This document shows, piece after piece, positions 20,450-63,559 of a DNA stretch of 64,000 bases. The translations under genes and the position numbers were made by a program. Each line of letters starts with the position of its first letter. The first letter of the stretch is position 1. Under the pieces are notes generated by a model, which worked only from the letters and a program-made list of their open reading frames with translations, searched no databases and was not told where the DNA came from. The stretch comes from the human T2T-CHM13v2.0 reference genome, Homo sapiens, in assembly GCF_009914755.1 (NCBI RefSeq), contig NC_060925.1, one strand, 5' to 3'.

Positions 20450-20544
20450 CATTTTGGTCTGCTGGTAGATTTCACCATAGGGGCCATCCCATCTCTATAG
20501 AGACTCTTGGTTTTACTGAAGTTAACAATGTTGAAAATGACCCT
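20450..20544 (-). CDS. AGBL4: Internal 95-nt coding exon of AGBL4 / cytosolic carboxypeptidase 6 (probably exon 4); phase 0 in, phase 2 out
   Basis: Minus strand: polypyrimidine cttctccctctttctttttcag|AGGGTCATT...CCAAAATG|gtaagt, canonical acceptor and consensus donor. Translation RVIFNIVNFSKTKSLYRDGMAPMVKSTSRPK(W) matches the CCP6 N-terminal region as I recall it. Not listed in the ORF track. Confidence 0.95.
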
Positions 20545-31014: not shown

Positions 31015-31859
31015 AAAAAGGCATTTATTGATACAAAGTCAATACTTAAAAATCAATTGTATATCTATATACTAACAGTAAACAATTAGAAAATAAAATT
31101 TTATTGTGATACCAATTATGATAGTATCAAATATCAGATACCTATAAATAAATGTAATCAAAAGTGCAAGACTTCAAAACGCAAAACTATAAAACATTGT
31201 TGAGACAAATCAGGGTGTTAAGTAAATGGAAAAATCTATCATAGACATAGATCGAAGATTCATTATTAAAATCTATGTAATTCACTAAAAACCCATTGGA
31301 AGTGTCTGTGTCTATGTGTGTTTATGCATGTAAAAGTTGATAATTTAATCAGAACGTTTATATAGGAGTGCAGAAGGCCAAGAAAAGCAGCAACAGAGTT
31401 TTAGATAGCAAGACTTACTGTAATGTTATAGTAATTAAAACAATTTAGTTTACATTGCTGTGGATTTGTATAGCTAGACCGATGGATCACAACAAAGAGC
31501 CTGGGAATAGACGCAATACATATTAAAAACAATATCGTAGATCAGATGAAAATTTGAACTATAAATGAATGGTCCTGGATCAATGGGTCATCCATATGGA
31601 ACAAACCAAGCTGGGTCTCTACCTAGCACCAAATACAGAAATAAAACCCAAATAGATTAGGAAATAAAATGCACAAAGCAAAACACAGCAGATTAGTTTA
31701 TGGACTCAAAGTATGTACAGTTTTTTTTTTTACAAAAAGCACAGAAGCATTAATTATGAAGGAAAAGATAGACATATTTGAGTATTTTACAAAAAAAAAT
31801 ACTATGCAAAACGATACCACAGAAAAATGAAAATGAAAGTCAATGATTGAAAAAAAAAT
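31015..31859 (+). mobile_element. Ancient L1M ORF2 relic (host of the L1PA3; resumes at ~38051-38990)
   Basis: Degenerate ORF2 3' motifs run collinearly across the L1PA3 insertion. Confidence 0.6.
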
Positions 31860-32499
31860 AGAACCACTGCTCTCTTCAAAGCTGTCAGACAGGGACATTT
31901 AAGTCTGCAAAGGTTACTGCTGTCTTTTTGTTTGTCTGTGCCCTGCCCCCAGAGGTGGAGCCTACAGAGGCAGGCAGGCCTCCTTGAGCTGTGCTGGGCT
32001 CCACCCAGTTCGAGTTTCCTGGCTGCTTTGTTTACGTAAGCGAGCCTCAGCAATGGCGGGCGCCCCTCCCCCAGCCTCGCTGCCGCCTTGCAGTTTGCTC
32101 TCAGACTGCTGTGCTAGCAATCAGCGAGACTCCGTGAGCATAGGACTCTCCTAGCCAGGTGCGGGATATAATTCTCCTGGTGCGCCGTTTCCTAAGCCCG
32201 TCAGAAAAGCGCAGTATTCGGGTGGGAGTGACCCGATTTTCCAGGTGCTGTCACCCCTTTCCTTGACCAGGAAAGGGAACTCCCTGACCTCTTGCACGTC
32301 CCGAGTGAGGCAATGCCTCGCGCTGCTTTGGCTCATGCACGGTGCGCTGCACCCACTGTCCTGCGCCCACTGTCTGGCACTCCCCAGTGAGATGAACCCG
32401 GTACCTCAGATGGAAATGCAGAAATCACCCATCTTCTGCGTCACTCACGCTGGGAGCTGTAGACCAGAGCTGTTCCTATTCGGCCATCTTGGCTCCTCC
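31860..32499 (-). promoter_or_regulatory. Inverted CpG-rich L1 5' UTR: sense promoter on minus strand, antisense promoter on plus strand
   Basis: L1 start GGAGGAGCCAAGATGGCCG with intact YY1 motif reads on minus from 32499; many CpGs kept; plus-strand ORF0 ATG at 32053 stops early at TAG 32152-32154. Confidence 0.75.
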
Positions 32500-32633
32500 A
32501 GCACGGAGCTGGAGATCTGAGAACAGGCAGACTGCCTCCTCTAGAGGGTCCCTGACCCCTGATCCCTGAGCAGCCTAACTGGGAGGCACCCCCCAGTAGG
32601 GGCAGACTGACACCTCACACGGCTGGGTACTCC

Positions 32634-32754
32634 TCTGAGACAAAACTTCCAGAGGAACGATCAGACAGCAGCATTTGCAGTTCATGAAAATCCACGGTTC
32701 TGCAGACCCCACTGCTGATAGCCAGGCAAACAGGGTCTGGAGTGAACCTCTAGC
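32634..32754 (+). promoter_or_regulatory. L1 5' UTR segment corresponding to the ~129-bp ZNF93-binding region
   Basis: 121 nt present here and absent at the equivalent site (57979/57980) of the other young L1; identity as the ZNF93 region is from established L1PA3 biology. Confidence 0.75.
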
Positions 32755-32879
32755 AACAGACCTGCAGCTGAGGATCCTGTCTGTTGAAAGGAAAACTAAC
32801 AAACAGAAAGGACATCCACACCAAAAACCCATCTGTACATCACCATCACCAAAGACCAAAAGTACATAAAACCACAAAG

Positions 32880-33896
32880 ATGAGGAAAAAACAGAGCAGA
32901 AAAAATGGAAACTCTAAAAAGCAGAGCGCCTCTCCTCCTCCAAAGGAACGCAGTTCCTCACCAGCAACGGAACAAAGCTGGATGGAGAATGACTTTGATG
33001 AGTTGAGAGAAGAAGGCTTCAGACGATCAAACTACTCCGAGCTACAGAAGGAAATTCGAACCAAAGGCAAAGAAGTTGAAAAATTTGAAAAAAATTTAGA
33101 CGAATGTATAACTAGAATAACCAATATAGAGAAGTGCTTAAAGGAGCTGATGGAGCTGAAAGCCAAGGCTCGAGAACTACGTGAAGAATGCAGAAGCCTC
33201 AGGAGCCGATGCGATCAACTGGAAGAAAGGGTATCAGTGATGGAAGATGAAATGAATGAAATGAAGTGAGAAGGGAAGTTTAGAGAAAAAAGAATAAAAA
33301 GAAACAAACAAAGCCTCCAAGAAATATGGGACTATGTGAAAATACCAAATCTGTGTCTGATTGGTGCACCTGAAAGTGACGGGGAGAATGGAACCAAGTT
33401 GGAAAACACTCTGCAGGATATTATCCAGGAGAACTTCCCCAATCTAGCAAGGCAGGCCAACGTTCAGATTCAGGAAATACAGAGAATGCCACAAAGATAC
33501 TCCTTGAGAAGAGCAACTCCAAGACACATAATTGTCAGATTCACCAAAGTTGCAATGAAGTAAAAAATCTTAAGGGCAGCCAGAGAGAAAGGTCGGGTTA
33601 CCCACAAAGGGAAGCCCATCAGACTAAGAGCGGATCTCTCAGCAGAAACTCTACAAGCCAGAAGAGAGTGGGGGCCAATATTCAACATTCTTAAAGAAAA
33701 TAATTTTCAACCCAGAATTTCATATCCAGCCAAACTAAGATCCATAAGTGAAGGAGAAATAAAATACCTTACAGACAAGCAAATGCTGAGAGACTTTGTC
33801 ACCACCAGGCCTGCCCTAAAAGAGCTCCTGAAGGAAGCACTAAACAAGGAAAGGAGCAACCAGTACCAGCCACTGCAAAATCATGCCAAAATGTAA
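32880..33896 (+). pseudogene. L1 ORF1, full 338-codon span with premature stops
   Basis: ATG 32880 to TAA 33896 = 1017 nt; in-frame stops at 33267-33269 (CGA>TGA) and 33561-33563. Confidence 0.92.
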
Positions 33897-33935
33897 AGAC
33901 CATCGAGACTAGGAAGAAACTGCATCAACTAATGA

Positions 33936-37782
<3,847 letters not shown>

Positions 37783-39218
37783 ACAATGAGAACACATGGA
37801 CACAGGAAGGGGAACATCACACTCTGGGGACTGTTGTGGGGTGGGGGGAGTGGGGAGGGATAGCATTAGGAGATATACCTAATGCTAAATGACGAGTTAA
37901 TGGGTGCAGCACACCAGCATGGCACATGTATACATATGTAACTAACCTGCACATTGTGCACATGTACCCTAAAACTTAAAGTATAATAATAAAATTAAAT
38001 AAATAGACAATTAAATGAATATTGATGACTTTCTGAAAAACAAAAAAAGATGAAAAAATAGAGTAATCCTCACAATGGTTTAATATGCAAATTTATAAAG
38101 AACTATTATAAATCAAAATATAAAAGACCAACAATACAATAGAAAATAGGCCAAGCATATAATCAGACAAGATATAGAAGGAGGAATATAAAGGTTTGTA
38201 AATTAAATATATGAATAGATGATTACTCCACTAGCAGTTGAGGAAATATAAATTAAGAAAATAATGAAATTTCTCATCCATCATATCAGCAAAAAAGTAA
38301 ATCTAATATCAAGTATTAGCAAATCTAATATCAAGTATTGGTAATTATGAAAGAACAATGATTTTGAACATTGCTGGTAAGCATGTAAAATAGAAGAGCC
38401 TCTTTAGAGGGGTACTTGACAATAAAGATGTTTATAACCTATAACCTAGCAATTCCACTTCTATGTGTTCTCCTTAAACAAATTTTGCCCATTGTATAAG
38501 GAGACACATGCAGAGTTGTTCACTGTATCAGTATTCATTTATAATAGGAAAACAAAAAAGTAACTAAAACCGCTTAATTTAAAAAACTGGATAAATTGTG
38601 GTTCATTAGTACAAAATACTTTTGAGCATTTAAAATGAATGCATTAGAGTGACATTTATCAACATAGAGAAACTTCCAAAAACTATGTTTAATGAAAATG
38701 GCAAGCATTTTAACACAAAACAGTAGTATATTTGTATACTTATATATAATCCAAGTATAATAAAAATACAAAATTATACATGGTAATAATAATTTCAGAA
38801 ATTTGGTAACTTCTGATAGAAAGAAAGAGGTAAGGAGAGAGGATGTTAGGTATATCCGTAATGACTTATTTATCAAAATCAATAAAAGCAAGCAGGATCT
38901 GAAAGATGACAAAATGTTAATATCTGCTTCATTTTATTGAGTGCTTTTATGTTATTTTATGTATATATGAAATTTCCCTAATTTAAAATTTAAAAATTTA
39001 AATAACTTTAATTCATTTGACACTTTAGTGTAAAATATGAAGTAGAATAATGTAGTTTTTTCCAAATGGTTAGCAAGTTGTGCCAATATCATTTATTGAA
39101 TAAGTCATTCCTTTCTAATTTTAAATGCTACCATTTCCATATAATAAATTTTTATATGTTTGGGTTTATCTCTGGACTTCAATTTCTGTTCCACTGATCT
39201 GTATGTTTATCCTAATGA

Positions 39219-39533
<315 letters not shown>

Positions 39534-42038
39534 TAATTTTGATAATTGTAGTTTCATGATATTTTTCAATTTATATTATGGCAAATCTCTAGTGAATGTT
39601 TTCCTTTTAAGATTTATTTGGTTTCAATCACACTCAGTGATCTTTTCTTATCTTTTATGGTTATTTTCTTTCATAATTCATTTTGTTTATGCTTCCTCAC
39701 TATGTTTTAAAATTTTTTGTTATACAACATTTCCTTAAAATATTTTCATGTTTTTCCTTCTTTATTTAGTAATTTCCATATCATTCATCCTAGTTTTATA
39801 TTACAAATGGTTATATTTAAACTTAAAAATGAATTTGAGTCCATAACTTAGGTATGAGTAGTTTTTATTATGAATGATGTCAGTAACTCCTTTGAGACTA
39901 ACGCTTGGCACTTAACCTCCTCTGATAATACAGAAGGTTTATAACTCAGTGGGGAAAAGCTCTTTGGAGTACGTCTGACAACATGTTCTAATCATATTGC
40001 ACCATGTACAAAGGTTGGTGTGAAATGGGCAGAACTACACAGGAGTTTAGGATCAATCTGCCTTGGTGTCATGACATATCAAAGGTTATATAGATAATAT
40101 GGTATGGGGCTGAGTTGGGGATAAAACCTAGATCTCTATTTGTTCAACCAATCAGCTCCTTTACTTCGGAGCCATATTCCCAGTTTTTATATTACTTATT
40201 GGGAGTGCAGCCTGATTCCCAGCATTGTGGAAAGAAATGCTGGAGTTTCAAGCCTACTTCTTACTGTGTGATTTATCATCTTTCTGAGCCTGTTATTTGT
40301 AGGGAGAAAAATCATACCCATCTGGTAGAGTTCTTAGAATTAAATATAATTGCCCAGACAATGTGTTTAGGGAACAATAAAAGACTACATATATATGTAT
40401 ATAATGTACATATATACGTACATGAACCTATACAACTATATACATTACATACAATTTATAGATATGTTTCCTATATATGTGTAGCTTCATGTACATATAT
40501 ATGAATATGTACGTGTGTATAGACACATATGTATACATATATGTGCATGTATGTATGTAAGGATATAGAGAGACAGATCATATGTATGATTATGCTAAGT
40601 CTCCTGCCCATGAAGAACCAAAAAGTTGCCACCTAAAGTCTTCAAAAAATGCTGAACAATCCTGGGCCTCATATATCAAAAGCATGGAGTCTGGATAATC
40701 ACTATGTGAAAAACGAATCCTTATCTATTATAAGTTGATGTTGAAGAGTCACAGGGAATCAACAAAGTTTGTTAATTAGCTGCACCTGTGTCTTGTTAAC
40801 TGGAAATTGTCAATCTTCACACAGATACTGCAGTCTGACAGAGATGGTAAAAAAAAAATGGCTTGCAGATTGCACATTAGAAGATTCCTCTCCCTCACTG
40901 AAAACTTGTGAGAAGGCAGCCAAAAGAGGTAAAAGGGGAATGGAGCAAAACATTCTCATCAAGGGGAGTTTAGCATATCAAACAAGGGCATTTGTAACAT
41001 GACAGAAAGAAGAAAAAGATCTTTCAGGGAGACTCTTTCTTCTCCCTTCTCAAAATAAATATCCACCAAGATACAGACAAAAAAAAAGCCTCTCTTTTCC
41101 TCAATCTGACAGCATTTCCTACATGGAATTTTGTTCTAAATTTTAGCACTAATTCAAACATATTCATTTAATCATAATTTTAATATTTATTAAATAAACA
41201 GTTATGGGTTTCCTACTCTGCTATGTGCTGAGATTATATAAATTAATAAGACTGGGCCCTTTGCCCTTAAGTGAGGAAAATAAACCTGTAACACACACAC
41301 ACACACACACACGCGAAGGTAGAGTCTGTAGCCAGCCTAAGGGAAGAAGAGGTGAATTTTTGCTGAGGAATAAGGACTGGCCAGGCAGTAGAGAACACAT
41401 GGAAGACATTTCAGTCAGAGGGAGCAACAAGAACAAAGGCTAAGTGGTAATTCTGGGGCTGGGTAGGGCAAGAGATCAGACTGTGTCATTAAGACATATG
41501 AGCATGTTAAAAAGTTTTAACTTTCACTGAAAGCAATATGAAGGGCCTATTGAAGGGTTTTAATTGTAGGTGTGAAAGGTTCAGATTTGTGTTTCAGAAA
41601 AAGCACCTAAGGCTGCACTGAATGACTGTTCCAGGGTTTATACTGGTCTCTGTAGAGTCAGCTGAATAAGTAAATGCTCTACTCTGAGGAAACGCATACT
41701 GTTATGGAGAAAACAAGCAAGTAAACAAGTTATTGCAAACCCAGTGTCATTAATGCAAAAATAGAAGAATATGTCAAGAACTCTTGGAGCTTTGGGTATA
41801 GTGCACAGAGGACAGTGATCACATCTGCCTGAATGGGAAGAGTACACTTTCTTTTGAGCCACTTCCCAAAAGATGATGTGTAGTTCTGAGTCAAATCACT
41901 TTGAAATTAGTACCATAGTACATTTCCCCTCCTAGTTGTAGCTATGTATGGTTTGTAAGATGACTGAGATCAGGGCAAAATCCTTCACATCTTTTGTAAC
42001 TGCAAAGTAGGTACTGACAGGGCTGAAGTCAGAGTGTA

Positions 42039-56936: not shown

Positions 56937-57433
56937 GGAAGAATGAACTGCAGGTCTGCTTTTGTGTTGCTCTAAAGTCCATGCTTTTTTGTTTTACACT
57001 ATGATAACTCAAATGAAGAGATTTTGTCATTTCTCTTCAATGAGGCTCTTTGTCTCAAAAAAAGGAGTAGGGGTATGGTACTATTCAAAAGACACTACAG
57101 AGATGGTTAGATGATGGGTAGGTGGACTGATTATACTATGTAAAACAACTTAAAATGCTCTTAAAACAATGGAGAACTAACAAAATATTAAGAAAGTAGG
57201 GGGAGGACCCAAGATGGCCGAATAGGAACAGCTCCGGTCTACAGCTCCCAGCGTGAGCGACGCAGAAGACAGGTGATTTCTGCATTTCCATCTGAGGTAT
57301 CGGGTTCATCTCACTAGGGAGTGCCAGACAGTGGGCGCAGGTCAGTAGGTGCTCGCACCGTGCGCGAGCCAAAGCAGGGCGAGGCATTGCCTCACTTGGG
57401 AAGCGCAAGGGGTCAGGGAGTTCCCTTTACGAG

Positions 57434-57649
57434 TCAAAGAAAGGGGTGACAGACGCACCTGGAAAATCGGGTCACTCCCACCCGAATATTGCGCTTTTCG
57501 GACGGGCTTAAAAAACGGCGCACCAAGAGATTATATCCCGCACCTGGCTTGGAGGGTCCTAGGCCCATGGAGTCTCGCTGACTGCTAGCACAGCAGTCTG
57601 AGATCCAACTGCAAGGCGGCAGCGAGGCTGGGGGAGGGGCGCCCGCCAT
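57434..57649 (-). CDS. Intact L1 ORF0 (71 aa) downstream of the antisense promoter
   Basis: MAGAPPPASLPPCS...RFSRCVCHPFL*, 216 nt, the C-terminal part of ORF-track 57434-57718; both ORF0 donors CAG|GTGCG intact; expression not shown. Confidence 0.7.
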   Translation of the reverse strand: MAGAPPPASLPPCSWISDCCASSQRDSMGLGPSKPGAGYNLLVRRFLSPSEKRNIRVGVTRFSRCVCHPFL

Positions 57650-58104
57650 TGCCCAGGCTTGCTTAGGTAAACAAACCAGCTGGGAAGCTGGAACTGGGTG
57701 GTGCCCACCACAGCTCAAGAAGGCCTGCCTGCCTCTGTAGGCTCCACCTCTGGGGGCAGGGCACAGACAAACAAAAAGACAGCACTAACCTCTGCAGACT
57801 TAAATGTCCCTGTCTGACAGCTTTGAAGAGAGCAGTGGTTCTCCCAGCACGCAGCTGGAGATCTGAGAACGGGCAGACTGCCTCCTCAAGTGGGTCCCTG
57901 ACCCCTGACCCCCGAGCAGCCTAACTGGGAGGCACCCCCAAGCAGGGGCACACTGACACCTCACACGGCAGGGTATTCCAACAGACTCGCAGCTGAGGGT
58001 CCTATCTGTTAGAAGGAAAACTAACAAACAGAAAGGACATCCACACCAAAAACCCATCTGTACATCACCATCATCAAAGACCAAAAGTAGATAAAACTGC
58101 AAAG

Positions 58105-59122
58105 ATGGGGAAAAAACAGAACAGAAAAACGAAACTCTAAAACGCAGAGCGTCTCTCCTCCTCCAAAGGAACGCAGTTCCTCACCAGCAACGGAACAAAG
58201 CTGGATGGAGAATGACTTTGACGAGCTGAGAGAGGAAGGCTTCAGACGATCAAATTACTCTGAGCTACAGAAGGAAATTCAAACCAAAGGCAAATAAGTT
58301 GAAAACTTTGAAAAAAATTTAGAAGAATGTATAACTAGAATAACCAATACAGAGAAGTGCTTAAAGGAGCTGATGGAGCTGAAAACCAAGGCTCAAGAAC
58401 TACGTGAAGAATGCAGAAGCCTCAGGAGCCGATGCGATCAACTGGAAGAAAGGGTATCAGCAATGGAAGATGAAATGAATGAAATGAAGCGAGAAGGGAA
58501 GTTTAGAGAAAAAAGAATAAAAAGAAATGAGCAAAGCCTCCAAGAAATATGGGACTATGTGAAAAGACCAAATCTACGTCTGATTGGTGTACCTGAAAGT
58601 GACGGGGAGAATGGAACCAAGTTGGAAAACACTCTGCAGGATATTATCCAGGAGAACTTCCCCAATCTAGCAAGGCAGGCCAACGTTCAGATTCAGGAAA
58701 TACAGAGAATGCCACAAAGATACTCCTCGAGAAGAGCAACTCCAAGACACATAATTGTCAGATTCACCAAAGTTGAAATGAAGGAAAAAATGTTAAGGGA
58801 AGCCAGAGAGAAAGGTCGGGTTACCCTCAAAGGGAAGCCCATCAGACTAACAGCAGCGGATCTCTCGGCAGAAACCCTACAAGCCAGAAGAGAGTGGGGG
58901 CCAATATTCAACATTCTTAAAGAAAATAATTTTCAATCCAGAATTTCATATCCAGCCAAACTAAGCTTCATAAGTGAAGGAGAAATAAAATACTTTACAG
59001 ACAAGCAAATGCTGAGAGATTTTGTCACCACCAGGCCTTCCCTAAAAGAGCTCCTGAAGGAAGCGCTAAACAGGGAAAGGAACAACCGGTACCAGCCACT
59101 GCAAAATCATGCCAAAATGTAA
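58105..59122 (+). pseudogene. L1 ORF1, disrupted near the N-terminus
   Basis: ATG 58105; small deletion at ~58130; TAA at ~58295; residual 249-aa ORF 58373-59122 with a 3-nt insertion (LTAADL). Confidence 0.9.
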
Positions 59123-59185
59123 AGACCATCGAGACTAGGAAGAAACTGCATCAACTAACGAGCAAAATCACCAGCTAACTTCATA

Positions 59186-62850
<3,665 letters not shown>

Positions 62851-63559
62851 ACAATGAGATCACATGGACACAGGAAGGGGAATATCACACTCTGGGGACT
62901 GTGGTGGGGTGGGGGGAGGGGGGAGGGATAGCATTGGGAGATATACCTAATGCTTGATGACGAGTTAGTGGGTGCAGCACACCAGCATGGCACATGTATA
63001 CATATGTAACTAACCTGCACAATGTGCACATGTACCCTAAAATTTAAAGTATAATAAAAAAAAAAAAGAAAGAAAGTACCAGGCCAAAATTTAAGTTAAT
63101 TCTAGATCCAACAGAGAGCATTTGCTGAATCTGGTGAATCTAAGCTTGGCAAAATAGGGATTGGTTTTCAGGGATGTCAAGGCCATTGCGAATTTTAAAA
63201 ATCATAGAAAAGTGAGACCAAAATTCTGTGCAATTTTCCTTCAATTCACTTGCAAAATTCTAAGCTGCTCATATACATGGTGAAATGCTAATAAAACAAG
63301 TAGAAAGTGGTACCTATGAGGTTAAAATGCTAAGTGGAGCTTTCAACAGTCTCAAAGTGCTGCAGAAAGACAGTTTGGAGTTCAAGGCCTACCAAGTTGG
63401 AAAATTGTGGTAAATACCCAATACTGTTTGAGATGCCAAGGGACTGTGCACTTGAGATGAAGGGCTATGCCCTTGGAGTAAGGGCAAGCCAAACATATAC
63501 CTGAATTGATATATTTGAAATTCAACCTCGACTGGATAAACATGATCTTCTCAAATGCT

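What the first reader, a model, noticed from the sequence alone, without database searches (positions are those of the whole stretch)
31860..32520. Full-length L1 with its whole promoter flipped: twin priming that reached the 5' end
Seen: 31860-32499 is the reverse complement of L1 nt ~1-640, ending at the L1 start motif. It joins forward L1 at ggctcctcc|agcacg with a 2-nt CC overlap and about 1 nt lost. At the outer junction the target site ...aataga overlaps the inverted L1 by aga. Known: this is the twin-priming geometry, but 5'-inverted L1s are usually also 5'-truncated and promoterless. Inference: here the bidirectional promoter is complete but reversed relative to the L1 body, which swaps what each promoter transcribes.
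Basis: partly seen in the sequence, partly recalled or inferred. Interest (0 to 1): 0.8.

Follow-up and report, generated by a model that had tools for sequence, protein, structure and literature searches.

The report
Full-length L1 with flipped promoter
An old, dead human L1 retrotransposon in an AGBL4 intron was inserted with its first ~640 bases back to front, and the flipped piece's antisense promoter now starts the annotated non-coding RNA AGBL4-AS1; this is a rare outcome of a known insertion mechanism.

Summary
Window 31860-32499 is the reverse complement of the first ~640 nt of an L1. It joins the rest of the same L1 (32498-~37989, + strand) with a 2-nt overlap and 1 nt lost.

The best explanation is twin priming at insertion, with the internally primed cDNA running to the 5' end of the RNA. 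Microhomology is seen at both junctions. The repeat at the target site is only a weak match.

The element is full-length but its reading frames are broken. It keeps a 5'UTR segment that a younger copy in the window lacks, so it is of early L1PA3 or L1PA4 type.

Exon 1 of AGBL4-AS1 (32092-32158, +) starts at L1 position 413 antisense, where the antisense promoter is reported. It splices from a GT donor over the whole L1 body.

The structure is not unique. Sampling 18 short junction windows genome-wide gave six more L1s whose inverted arm reaches the 5' end. One, on chr10, has breakpoints within about 8 nt of this one.

I found no copies descended from this element and no convincing hotspot. Ape orthologues and long reads could not be checked. 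Interest is moderate to low.

The parts
31845..31862 (+). Left copy of the putative target-site duplication (GATTGAAAAAAAAATAGA). Its last 3 nt (AGA, 31860-31862) are shared with the inverted L1.
   Evidence: sequence. In one search the exact 10-nt match AAAAAATAGA is 31853-31862 against 38053-38062. The longer gapped alignment is not significant in this A-rich context (83 of 500 shuffles reach its score).
31860..32499 (-). Inverted arm: L1 positions 645 to 5, with the L1 sense strand on the window's minus strand. It holds the region of both the sense and the antisense promoter.
   Evidence: blastn to in-window L1 B, minus strand, 91.8% over 643 columns; position map. CpG observed/expected is 0.51, against 0.53 in B.
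32053..32154 (+). Remnant of the antisense ORF0 frame: ATG at L1 position 452, 33 codons, then TAG at 32152-32154.
   Evidence: the translation starts MAGAPPPASLPPCS. The same frame is open for 71 codons in copy B. The name ORF0 comes from Criscione 2016 (PMC4908685, passages) and from my recall of Denli 2015.
32092..32158 (+). Exon 1 of lncRNA AGBL4-AS1 (NR_125988.1). The TSS is at L1 position 413 antisense, the exon ends at position 347, and the GT donor is at 32159-32160.
   Evidence: Hub annotation row; mapping to L1 positions. CTAGCCAG|gtgcgg, canonical AG/GT at all three introns, and AATAAA before the 3' end.
32498..32499 (.). Inversion junction: CC shared by both parts, with one L1 base lost (B 57843).
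32498..37989 (+). Forward L1 body from position 647 to the 3' end: the rest of the 5'UTR, ORF1 (broken), ORF2 (split) and the 3'UTR.
   Evidence: three forward blastn blocks at 92-96.5%. ORFs 32880-33269 (129 aa), 33960-36980 (1006 aa) and 36958-37782 (274 aa). Tnp_22_trimer, Exo_endo_phos and RVT_1.
32634..32753 (+). 120-nt 5'UTR segment that the younger copies B and chr10 lack. It lies where the ZNF93-site segment, lost within L1PA3, is reported.
   Evidence: gap in the alignment to B; also absent from the chr10 copy. The 129-bp deletion is described in PMC7110667 and PMC5860796 (passages). I did not align the segment to a published consensus.
37990..38048 (+). Composite tail: an A-rich run (37990-38003), a 44-nt stretch of non-L1 origin (38002-38045) carrying ATTAAA at 38010-38015, and a second A run (38036-38048). 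It looks like a short 3' transduction.
   Evidence: sequence; the 44 nt match chr18 near 60286750-60286781 at 95.5%, the only other place in the genome within 3 mismatches of the 32-mer (reversed-pattern control 0). No L1 lies upstream of it there.
38049..38062 (+). Right copy of the putative target-site duplication (GATGAAAAAATAGA).

Best explanation
One L1 RNA of early L1PA3 or L1PA4 type was inserted by twin priming. The steps below are inferred from the model unless marked as shown.

1. The bottom strand of the target primed on the poly(A) tail and was copied up to about L1 position 647.
2. The 3' end of the cut top strand (...TAGA) annealed to UCU at positions 643-645 of the same RNA. It was copied to within 3 nt of the RNA's 5' end.
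3. The two cDNA ends were joined through a CC/GG microhomology, losing one base.

Shown: the result is a complete L1 whose first ~640 nt, promoter region included, point away from the body.

Consequences:
- Shown by annotation and mapping: the antisense promoter, which normally reads out of an L1, here reads towards and across the L1's own body. It starts lncRNA AGBL4-AS1, which splices from the L1 antisense donor over the body to unique exons.
- Inferred only: the sense promoter now faces the left flank, in the direction in which AGBL4 itself is transcribed.
- The element cannot code, because ORF1 and ORF2 are broken.
For: Structure:
- The two parts are adjacent in L1 coordinates (645|647), with a 2-nt overlap and a 1-nt loss.
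- A 3-nt AGA microhomology lies at the outer junction. The same ...AAAAAATAGA follows the tail.
- The L1 G-run end lies at the inner junction, not the outer one. This is what a cDNA that ran off the RNA's 5' end predicts.

Recurrence. The same architecture occurs at independent loci, with arms ending at positions 2-12:
- chr10 5-637|653
- chr6 9-393|374
- chr3 5-695|684
- chr18 4-852|853
- chr16 12-765|795
- chr20 2-1433|1433
. These show the small deletions or duplications at the junction that are described for twin priming (Gardner 2017, PMC5668948, section 12 read whole; Kojima 2010, PMC2912911, passages).

Transcript:
- Exon 1 maps to L1 positions 413-347 antisense.
- Criscione 2016 places the primary antisense promoter at ~400 bp (PMC4908685, section 7).
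- Splice sites are canonical.
Against: - The target-site duplication is weak evidence. Only 10 nt match exactly, in an A-rich flank, and the gapped 14-18 nt version is no better than 83 of 500 shuffles.
- The implied endonuclease site is not clearly of the usual T-rich type.
- No empty site, ape orthologue or read-level support could be examined.
- Promoter activity rests on one RefSeq model given by the hub. I saw no CAGE or expression data, and AGBL4-AS1 occurs in 0 papers of the library.
- Nothing supports use of the sense promoter.
Confidence: 0.85

Rival explanations
1. The L1 inserted in the ordinary full-length way, and its first ~640 nt were inverted later by a DNA rearrangement.
For: L1 has a short inverted match that could pair: GGGAG near its start and CTCCC at positions ~642-646. 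The weak TSD cannot by itself tie the arm to the insertion event.
Against: An exchange between those two short repeats would leave the G-run at the outer edge. Instead the arm abuts the target directly (...TAGA|ACCACTG) and the G-run end sits at the inner junction. One breakpoint would also have to fall exactly at the L1/target boundary. Six other loci show arms that all end at L1 positions 2-12 with varied inner breakpoints. This fits run-off at an RNA end and does not fit random DNA breaks.
Confidence: 0.06
2. The junction is an assembly artefact.
For: L1s are repeats, and I saw no reads.
Against: This copy is 5-6% diverged from its nearest full-length relatives (39 non-self hits at 94-95% over 1 kb), which should make it easy to place. 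The RefSeq transcript needs the arm's antisense strand to be on the + strand, collinear with exons at 40.8-44.0 kb, while the L1 ORFs are also on +. The same architecture is seen at six other loci.
Confidence: 0.02
3. The structure arose by template switching of the reverse transcriptase onto an L1 antisense RNA, or from two separate L1 insertions.
For: Antisense L1 RNAs exist (PMC4908685).
Against: The antisense template would need its 3' end at L1 position ~5 and its 5' end at ~645. Antisense starts are reported within the first 600 bp, mainly at ~400, and those RNAs run out past position 1. A separate insertion holding only positions 5-645 would lack a 3' end and a tail. The 645|647 fit of the two parts would then be a coincidence.
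Confidence: 0.03

Closest known systems
Twin-primed (5'-inverted) L1 insertions. The model is Ostertag & Kazazian 2001, which is not held in the library. It is summarised in Kojima 2010 (PMC2912911) and Gardner 2017 (PMC5668948).
   Same: The 5' part is inverted and the 3' part, with its tail, is not. Microhomology lies at the junction between target and arm and at the inversion junction. A small loss occurs at the junction, and the whole is flanked by target copies.
   Different: The inverted arm runs to within 3 nt of the L1 5' end, so nothing is truncated and the promoter region is kept. The junction (position ~645) lies at the far 5' edge of the reported range. Gardner 2017 found no junction in the first 590 bp among 298 polymorphic 5'-inverted L1s.
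L1 antisense-promoter chimeric transcripts (Criscione 2016, PMC4908685; Speek 2001, recalled).
   Same: The TSS lies in the antisense strand of the 5'UTR near position 400. The first exon ends at a donor inside the L1 antisense sequence and is spliced to non-L1 exons.
   Different: In an ordinary L1 the antisense promoter reads away from the element. Here it reads through the element's own 5.5-kb body in the sense direction, and the body becomes part of intron 1. The product is a lncRNA antisense to the host gene, with no host-gene exons in it.
L1 3' transduction
   Same: The layout is L1 3' end, A-rich run, 44 nt of non-L1 sequence with an ATTAAA signal 20 nt before a second A run, then the target copy.
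   Different: The only matching locus (chr18) has no L1 upstream in this genome, so no progenitor is seen.
ORF0, the antisense reading frame of primate L1 5'UTRs
   Same: There is an ATG at L1 position 452 antisense. The frame starts MAGAPPPASLPPCS, like that of copy B, where it is open for 71 codons.
   Different: Here the frame stops after 33 codons, and the annotated TSS (32092) lies downstream of the ATG (32053). The RefSeq RNA therefore cannot encode it.

Membership tests
Twin-primed L1 insertion | 5' segment inverted relative to the 3' segment, with the two adjacent in L1 coordinates | tested here: met
   minus-strand match to positions 645-5, then a forward match from position 647.
Twin-primed L1 insertion | Microhomology between the target end and the inverted arm | tested here: met
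   AGA is shared (31860-31862). The right target copy ends TAGA.
Twin-primed L1 insertion | Microhomology and/or a small deletion or duplication at the inversion junction | tested here: met
   2-nt CC overlap and 1 nt lost.
Twin-primed L1 insertion | Poly(A) tail, with target-site duplication flanking the whole insertion | tested here: inconclusive
   A runs are present. There is a 10-nt exact repeat at both edges. The 14-18 nt gapped version is not above shuffles (83 of 500).
Twin-primed L1 insertion | Structure present from the time of insertion (empty site in outgroups, same form in all carriers) | not testable with these tools
   No primate genomes are held.
Full-length L1PA element | All of 5'UTR, ORF1, ORF2 and 3'UTR represented | tested here: met
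   One search covers positions 5 to the 3' end apart from 1 nt. One search gives the Pfam domains.
Retrotransposition-competent L1 | Intact ORF1 and ORF2 | tested here: not met
   ORF1 is open for only 129 aa. ORF2 is split into 1006 + 274 aa.
L1 antisense-promoter transcript | TSS on the antisense strand of the 5'UTR at the reported promoter (~400; within the first 600 bp) | tested here: met
   The annotated TSS 32092 maps to position 413. The reported position is from PMC4908685, section 7. The TSS itself comes from the hub's annotation and not from data I saw.
L1 antisense-promoter transcript | Splicing from an L1 antisense donor to exons outside the L1 | tested here: met
   CAG|GT at 32158/32159, with acceptors at 40825, 42764 and 43757.
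   The element has 120 nt that B and the chr10 copy lack. This fits early L1PA3 or L1PA4 (PMC7110667, PMC5860796). No consensus library was available to tell them apart.
3' transduction | Source locus with an L1 directly upstream of the transduced sequence | tested here: not met
   The chr18 match has unique sequence upstream.

The most novel reading that the evidence does not exclude
L1s whose whole promoter arm is flipped form a distinct, recurrent class, with roughly 20-30 junctions in the first 2 kb of L1 genome-wide. Their junctions may gather just beyond the ~590-nt junction-free zone reported for polymorphic L1s, which would point to a physical limit in the insertion complex. In such elements the antisense promoter becomes a promoter for the element's own body and for new lncRNAs such as AGBL4-AS1. 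When fresh, it could have given these elements a second route to expression that does not use the sense promoter.
Probability: 0.15. Interest if true: 0.55.

Novelty: new member of a known kind. Interest (0 to 1): 0.38.

Why it matters
The case shows that twin priming does not always kill the L1 promoter. When the second cDNA reaches the RNA's 5' end, a complete bidirectional promoter is planted in reverse next to its own body. Here that plausibly created the start site and first exon of an annotated human lncRNA, antisense to AGBL4.

The case also gives a simple sequence signature, an inverted L1 5' end abutting forward L1. With it such elements can be listed and tested for promoter use.

For L1 biology it is a minor extension. 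The mechanism, the antisense promoter and its chimeric transcripts are all known.

Tried and rejected
1. Hotspot at position ~645.
- A second locus (chr10) has an arm of 5-637 joined to forward 653. Its flanks differ and it lacks the 120-nt segment, so it is an independent event.
- Sampling 17 control windows of ~27 nt found similar events at 374/393, 684/695, 765/795, 852/853 and 1433. All 40 returned loci were checked by blastn.
- That is about one event per three windows, so two events within ~8 nt is not remarkable.
- Windows before position 590 gave 1 event in 6. Windows at 590-960 gave 4 non-index events in 6, not counting the overlapping window. This agrees in direction with Gardner 2017, but the numbers are too small to be significant.

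2. Progeny. If the antisense promoter had driven copies of this element, they would carry its junction. The junction pattern with up to 2 mismatches found only chr1 and chr10, plus 2 chance rows. No progeny are seen.

3. Template switching onto antisense RNA, fold-back priming, and inversion between GGGAG and CTCCC. All were rejected on geometry (see rival explanations).

4. Source of the 44-nt tail segment. It was found on chr18, but no L1 lies beside it. A transduction is therefore plausible but unproven.

5. One-pass census.

7. Literature.
- Searches turned up no description of a complete flipped promoter arm in the listings or in the passages I read.
- I read passages of PMC12350158, PMC2912911, PMC12016303, PMC2837659 and PMC5860796, and section 12 of PMC5668948.
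- Ostertag & Kazazian 2001 and Szak 2002 are not held, so I cannot exclude that they describe such cases.
- I opened no supplementary tables of L1 inversions or of antisense transcripts. They may list this locus.

Full report
**What is there.** The window is human chr1 (T2T-CHM13), inside an intron of AGBL4 (hub annotation). A second full-length L1 lies in the same window, and I used it as a reference. I call it copy B. It is on the + strand, and my scripts count B position 1 = window 57198, so its opening run of five G is positions 2-6.

blastn of window 31500-38500 against B gave four blocks:
- 31860-32499 matches B 57842-57202 on the minus strand (91.8%).
- 32498-32633 matches B 57844-57979 forward.
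- 32754-35275 matches forward (95.8%).
- 35431-37994 matches forward (96.5%).

So L1 positions 5-645 are inverted, and position 647 onwards is forward. Two bases (CC, 32498-32499) are shared by both parts and one base is missing.

The arm ends GGAGGAGCC read in the L1 sense, three G short of B's first base. ORF2 carries Exo_endo_phos and RVT_1 domains, and ORF1 carries the L1 trimerisation domain. Both frames are broken: ORF1 is open for 129 aa, and ORF2 is split into 1006 + 274 aa. The element is therefore full-length but cannot code.

**Edges.** The left flank ends GATTGAAAAAAAAATAGA (31845-31862). After the L1 tail the sequence reads GATGAAAAAATAGA (38049-38062) and then unique sequence. 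The last 10 nt match exactly and sit flush with both edges of the insertion.

A gapped alignment of these A-rich flanks is no better than 83 of 500 shuffles. I therefore count the target duplication as plausible but not strong. The final AGA of the target is also the first three bases of the inverted arm, which gives a 3-nt microhomology.

The tail is composite:
- an A-rich run;
- 44 nt of non-L1 sequence with ATTAAA 20 nt before its end;
- a second A run.

Those 44 nt match one other place in the genome, on chr18, at 95.5%. No L1 lies beside that site. This looks like a short 3' transduction from a progenitor that is absent from this genome, but that is not shown.

**Mechanism.** Every testable feature of twin priming is met:
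- The two parts are adjacent in L1 coordinates.
- There is microhomology at the junction between target and arm.
- There is microhomology at the inversion junction.
- There is a one-base loss at the inversion junction.

The model and these features are as summarised by Kojima 2010 (PMC2912911, passages) and Gardner 2017 (PMC5668948, section 12). The original paper is not held.

The L1's G-run end sits at the inner junction. This is what is expected if the internally primed cDNA ran off the 5' end of the RNA.

The rivals fit less well:
- A later DNA inversion between the short inverted match GGGAG/CTCCC would leave the G-run at the outer edge, which is not seen.
- Template switching onto an antisense L1 RNA would need an RNA that starts at ~645 and ends at ~5. 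Reported antisense starts lie within the first 600 bp, mainly at ~400 (PMC4908685, section 7), and those RNAs run out past position 1.
- An assembly error is unlikely. The copy is 5-6% diverged from its nearest full-length relatives (39 non-self hits at 94-95% over 1 kb; 40 of 5376 candidates were scored). An independent cDNA-based RefSeq model also needs the arm in this orientation.

**Not unique.** A search of the whole genome with the junction region found one other locus that covers it, on chr10 (40 of 3692 candidates scored). That copy has an arm of 5-637 joined to forward 653. Its flanks differ and it lacks the 120-nt segment, so it is an independent event.

To learn whether position ~645 is special, I searched the genome with patterns that allowed up to 2 mismatches. 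Each pattern was an 11-nt anchor from the inverted 5' end, a gap of 4-34 nt, and a forward 14-mer taken from chosen L1 positions. This gave 17 control windows beside the index window. All 40 loci returned were checked by blastn against B (details).

Five more L1s have an arm that reaches positions 2-12 and abuts the forward body:

| Locus | Inverted arm | Forward from |
|---|---|---|
| chr6 | 9-393 | 374 |
| chr3 | 5-695 | 684 |
| chr18 | 4-852 | 853 |
| chr16 | 12-765 | 795 |
| chr20 | 2-1433 | 1433 |

Two others have such arms but large internal losses: chr4 11-1057|1385 and chr6 8-538|5457. One row (chr12) is a young L1 next to an unrelated old fragment (73% identity) and was not counted. 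The remaining rows were chance matches.

With about one event per three windows, two events within ~8 nt of each other is not remarkable. I therefore dropped the hotspot idea. Scaling the control windows up gives very roughly 20-30 such elements with junctions in the first 2 kb of L1. That compares with thousands of L1 5' regions (5376 candidates).

By region, the counts were:
- Windows before position 590: 1 event in 6.
- Windows at 590-960: 4 non-index events in 6.

[quoted passage not shown] My numbers are too small to test that limit, and the chr6 case at 374/393 is an exception to it.

**Consequence.** RefSeq's AGBL4-AS1 (hub row) has exon 1 at 32092-32158 on the + strand, inside the arm. 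Mapped onto L1, the TSS is position 413 and the exon ends at 347, both on the antisense strand. That is where the primary antisense promoter is placed (~400 bp; PMC4908685, section 7).

The exon ends CAG|GT. The three acceptors (40825, 42764, 43757) and the other donors are canonical, and AATAAA precedes the 3' end. Intron 1 therefore contains the whole forward L1 body in the sense direction. In an ordinary L1 this promoter reads away from the element.

The antisense ORF0 frame starts at 32053 (position 452), upstream of the annotated TSS, and stops after 33 codons. It is open for 71 codons in B.

For the sense promoter it is only an inference. That promoter now points along the minus strand, the strand of AGBL4, and I saw no transcript from it.

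The junction pattern found no further copies. So there is no sign that the antisense promoter ever propagated this element.

**Age and type.** The element has 120 nt (32634-32753) that B and the chr10 copy lack. This is at the place where a 129-bp segment holding the ZNF93 site was lost within L1PA3 in the great-ape ancestor (PMC7110667 and PMC5860796, passages). That fits early L1PA3 or L1PA4.

**What is known and what is new.** Three things are established: twin priming, the L1 antisense promoter, and its chimeric transcripts.

I found no description of an L1 with its complete promoter arm flipped, or of an antisense promoter reading its own body. AGBL4-AS1 occurs in 0 papers of the library.

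The two papers most likely to mention such cases, Ostertag & Kazazian 2001 and Szak 2002, are not held. I opened no supplementary tables.

I file this as a further member of a known kind, at the rare end of its range, with a tidy consequence for transcription.

**Open points.** Four checks are missing, and the first two are the decisive ones:
- ape and monkey orthologues;
- read-level support for the junction;
- capped-RNA data for both promoters;
- a complete census of the class.

Noticed in passing
G000:C10:30978697-30984700 (loci L002, L010, L011, L046): This is an independent L1 of younger 5'UTR type with almost the same architecture. The inverted arm covers positions 5-637 and joins forward L1 at 653. 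Flanks differ and the target repeat is weak (GTAATAAAATCT against GTAAAAGAATCC).
   Followed up: yes
L015 (chr6:125.5 Mb), L026 (chr3:3.9 Mb), L030 (chr18:4.6 Mb), L040 (chr16:38.2 Mb), L051 (chr20:30.9 Mb); also L047 (chr4:66.5 Mb) and L048 (chr6:116.0 Mb): Five more L1s have an inverted arm that reaches L1 positions 2-12 and abuts the forward body: 9-393|374, 5-695|684, 4-852|853, 12-765|795 and 2-1433|1433. Two further L1s have arms that reach the 5' end but carry large internal losses: 11-1057|1385 and 8-538|5457. The chr6 case at 374/393 lies inside the first 590 bp, where Gardner 2017 found no junction among polymorphic L1s.
   Followed up: partly
window 38002-38045 and L036 (chr18 near 60286750-60286781, minus strand): 44 nt between the L1's two A-rich runs match a unique chr18 site at 95.5%. 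An ATTAAA signal lies 20 nt before the second A run. The chr18 site has no L1 beside it, so this may be a transduction from a progenitor that is absent from this genome.
   Followed up: partly
window 57199-63067 (+): This is a second full-length L1 of younger type, flanked by AAGAAAGTA on both sides. It lacks ~155 nt that the first L1 has at 35276-35430. Its antisense ORF0 frame is open for 71 codons. I used it as the in-window reference.
   Followed up: partly
window 20450-20544 (-) relative to 31860-32499: The flipped sense promoter points along the minus strand, the strand of AGBL4. An AGBL4 coding exon lies ~11 kb further on in that direction. The hub's table shows no transcript that starts in the arm on that strand, but it showed only 1 of 10 AGBL4 transcripts.
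   Followed up: no
window 38296-38339: A tandem duplication of a 22-nt unit (95% identical) lies just right of the L1.
   Followed up: no
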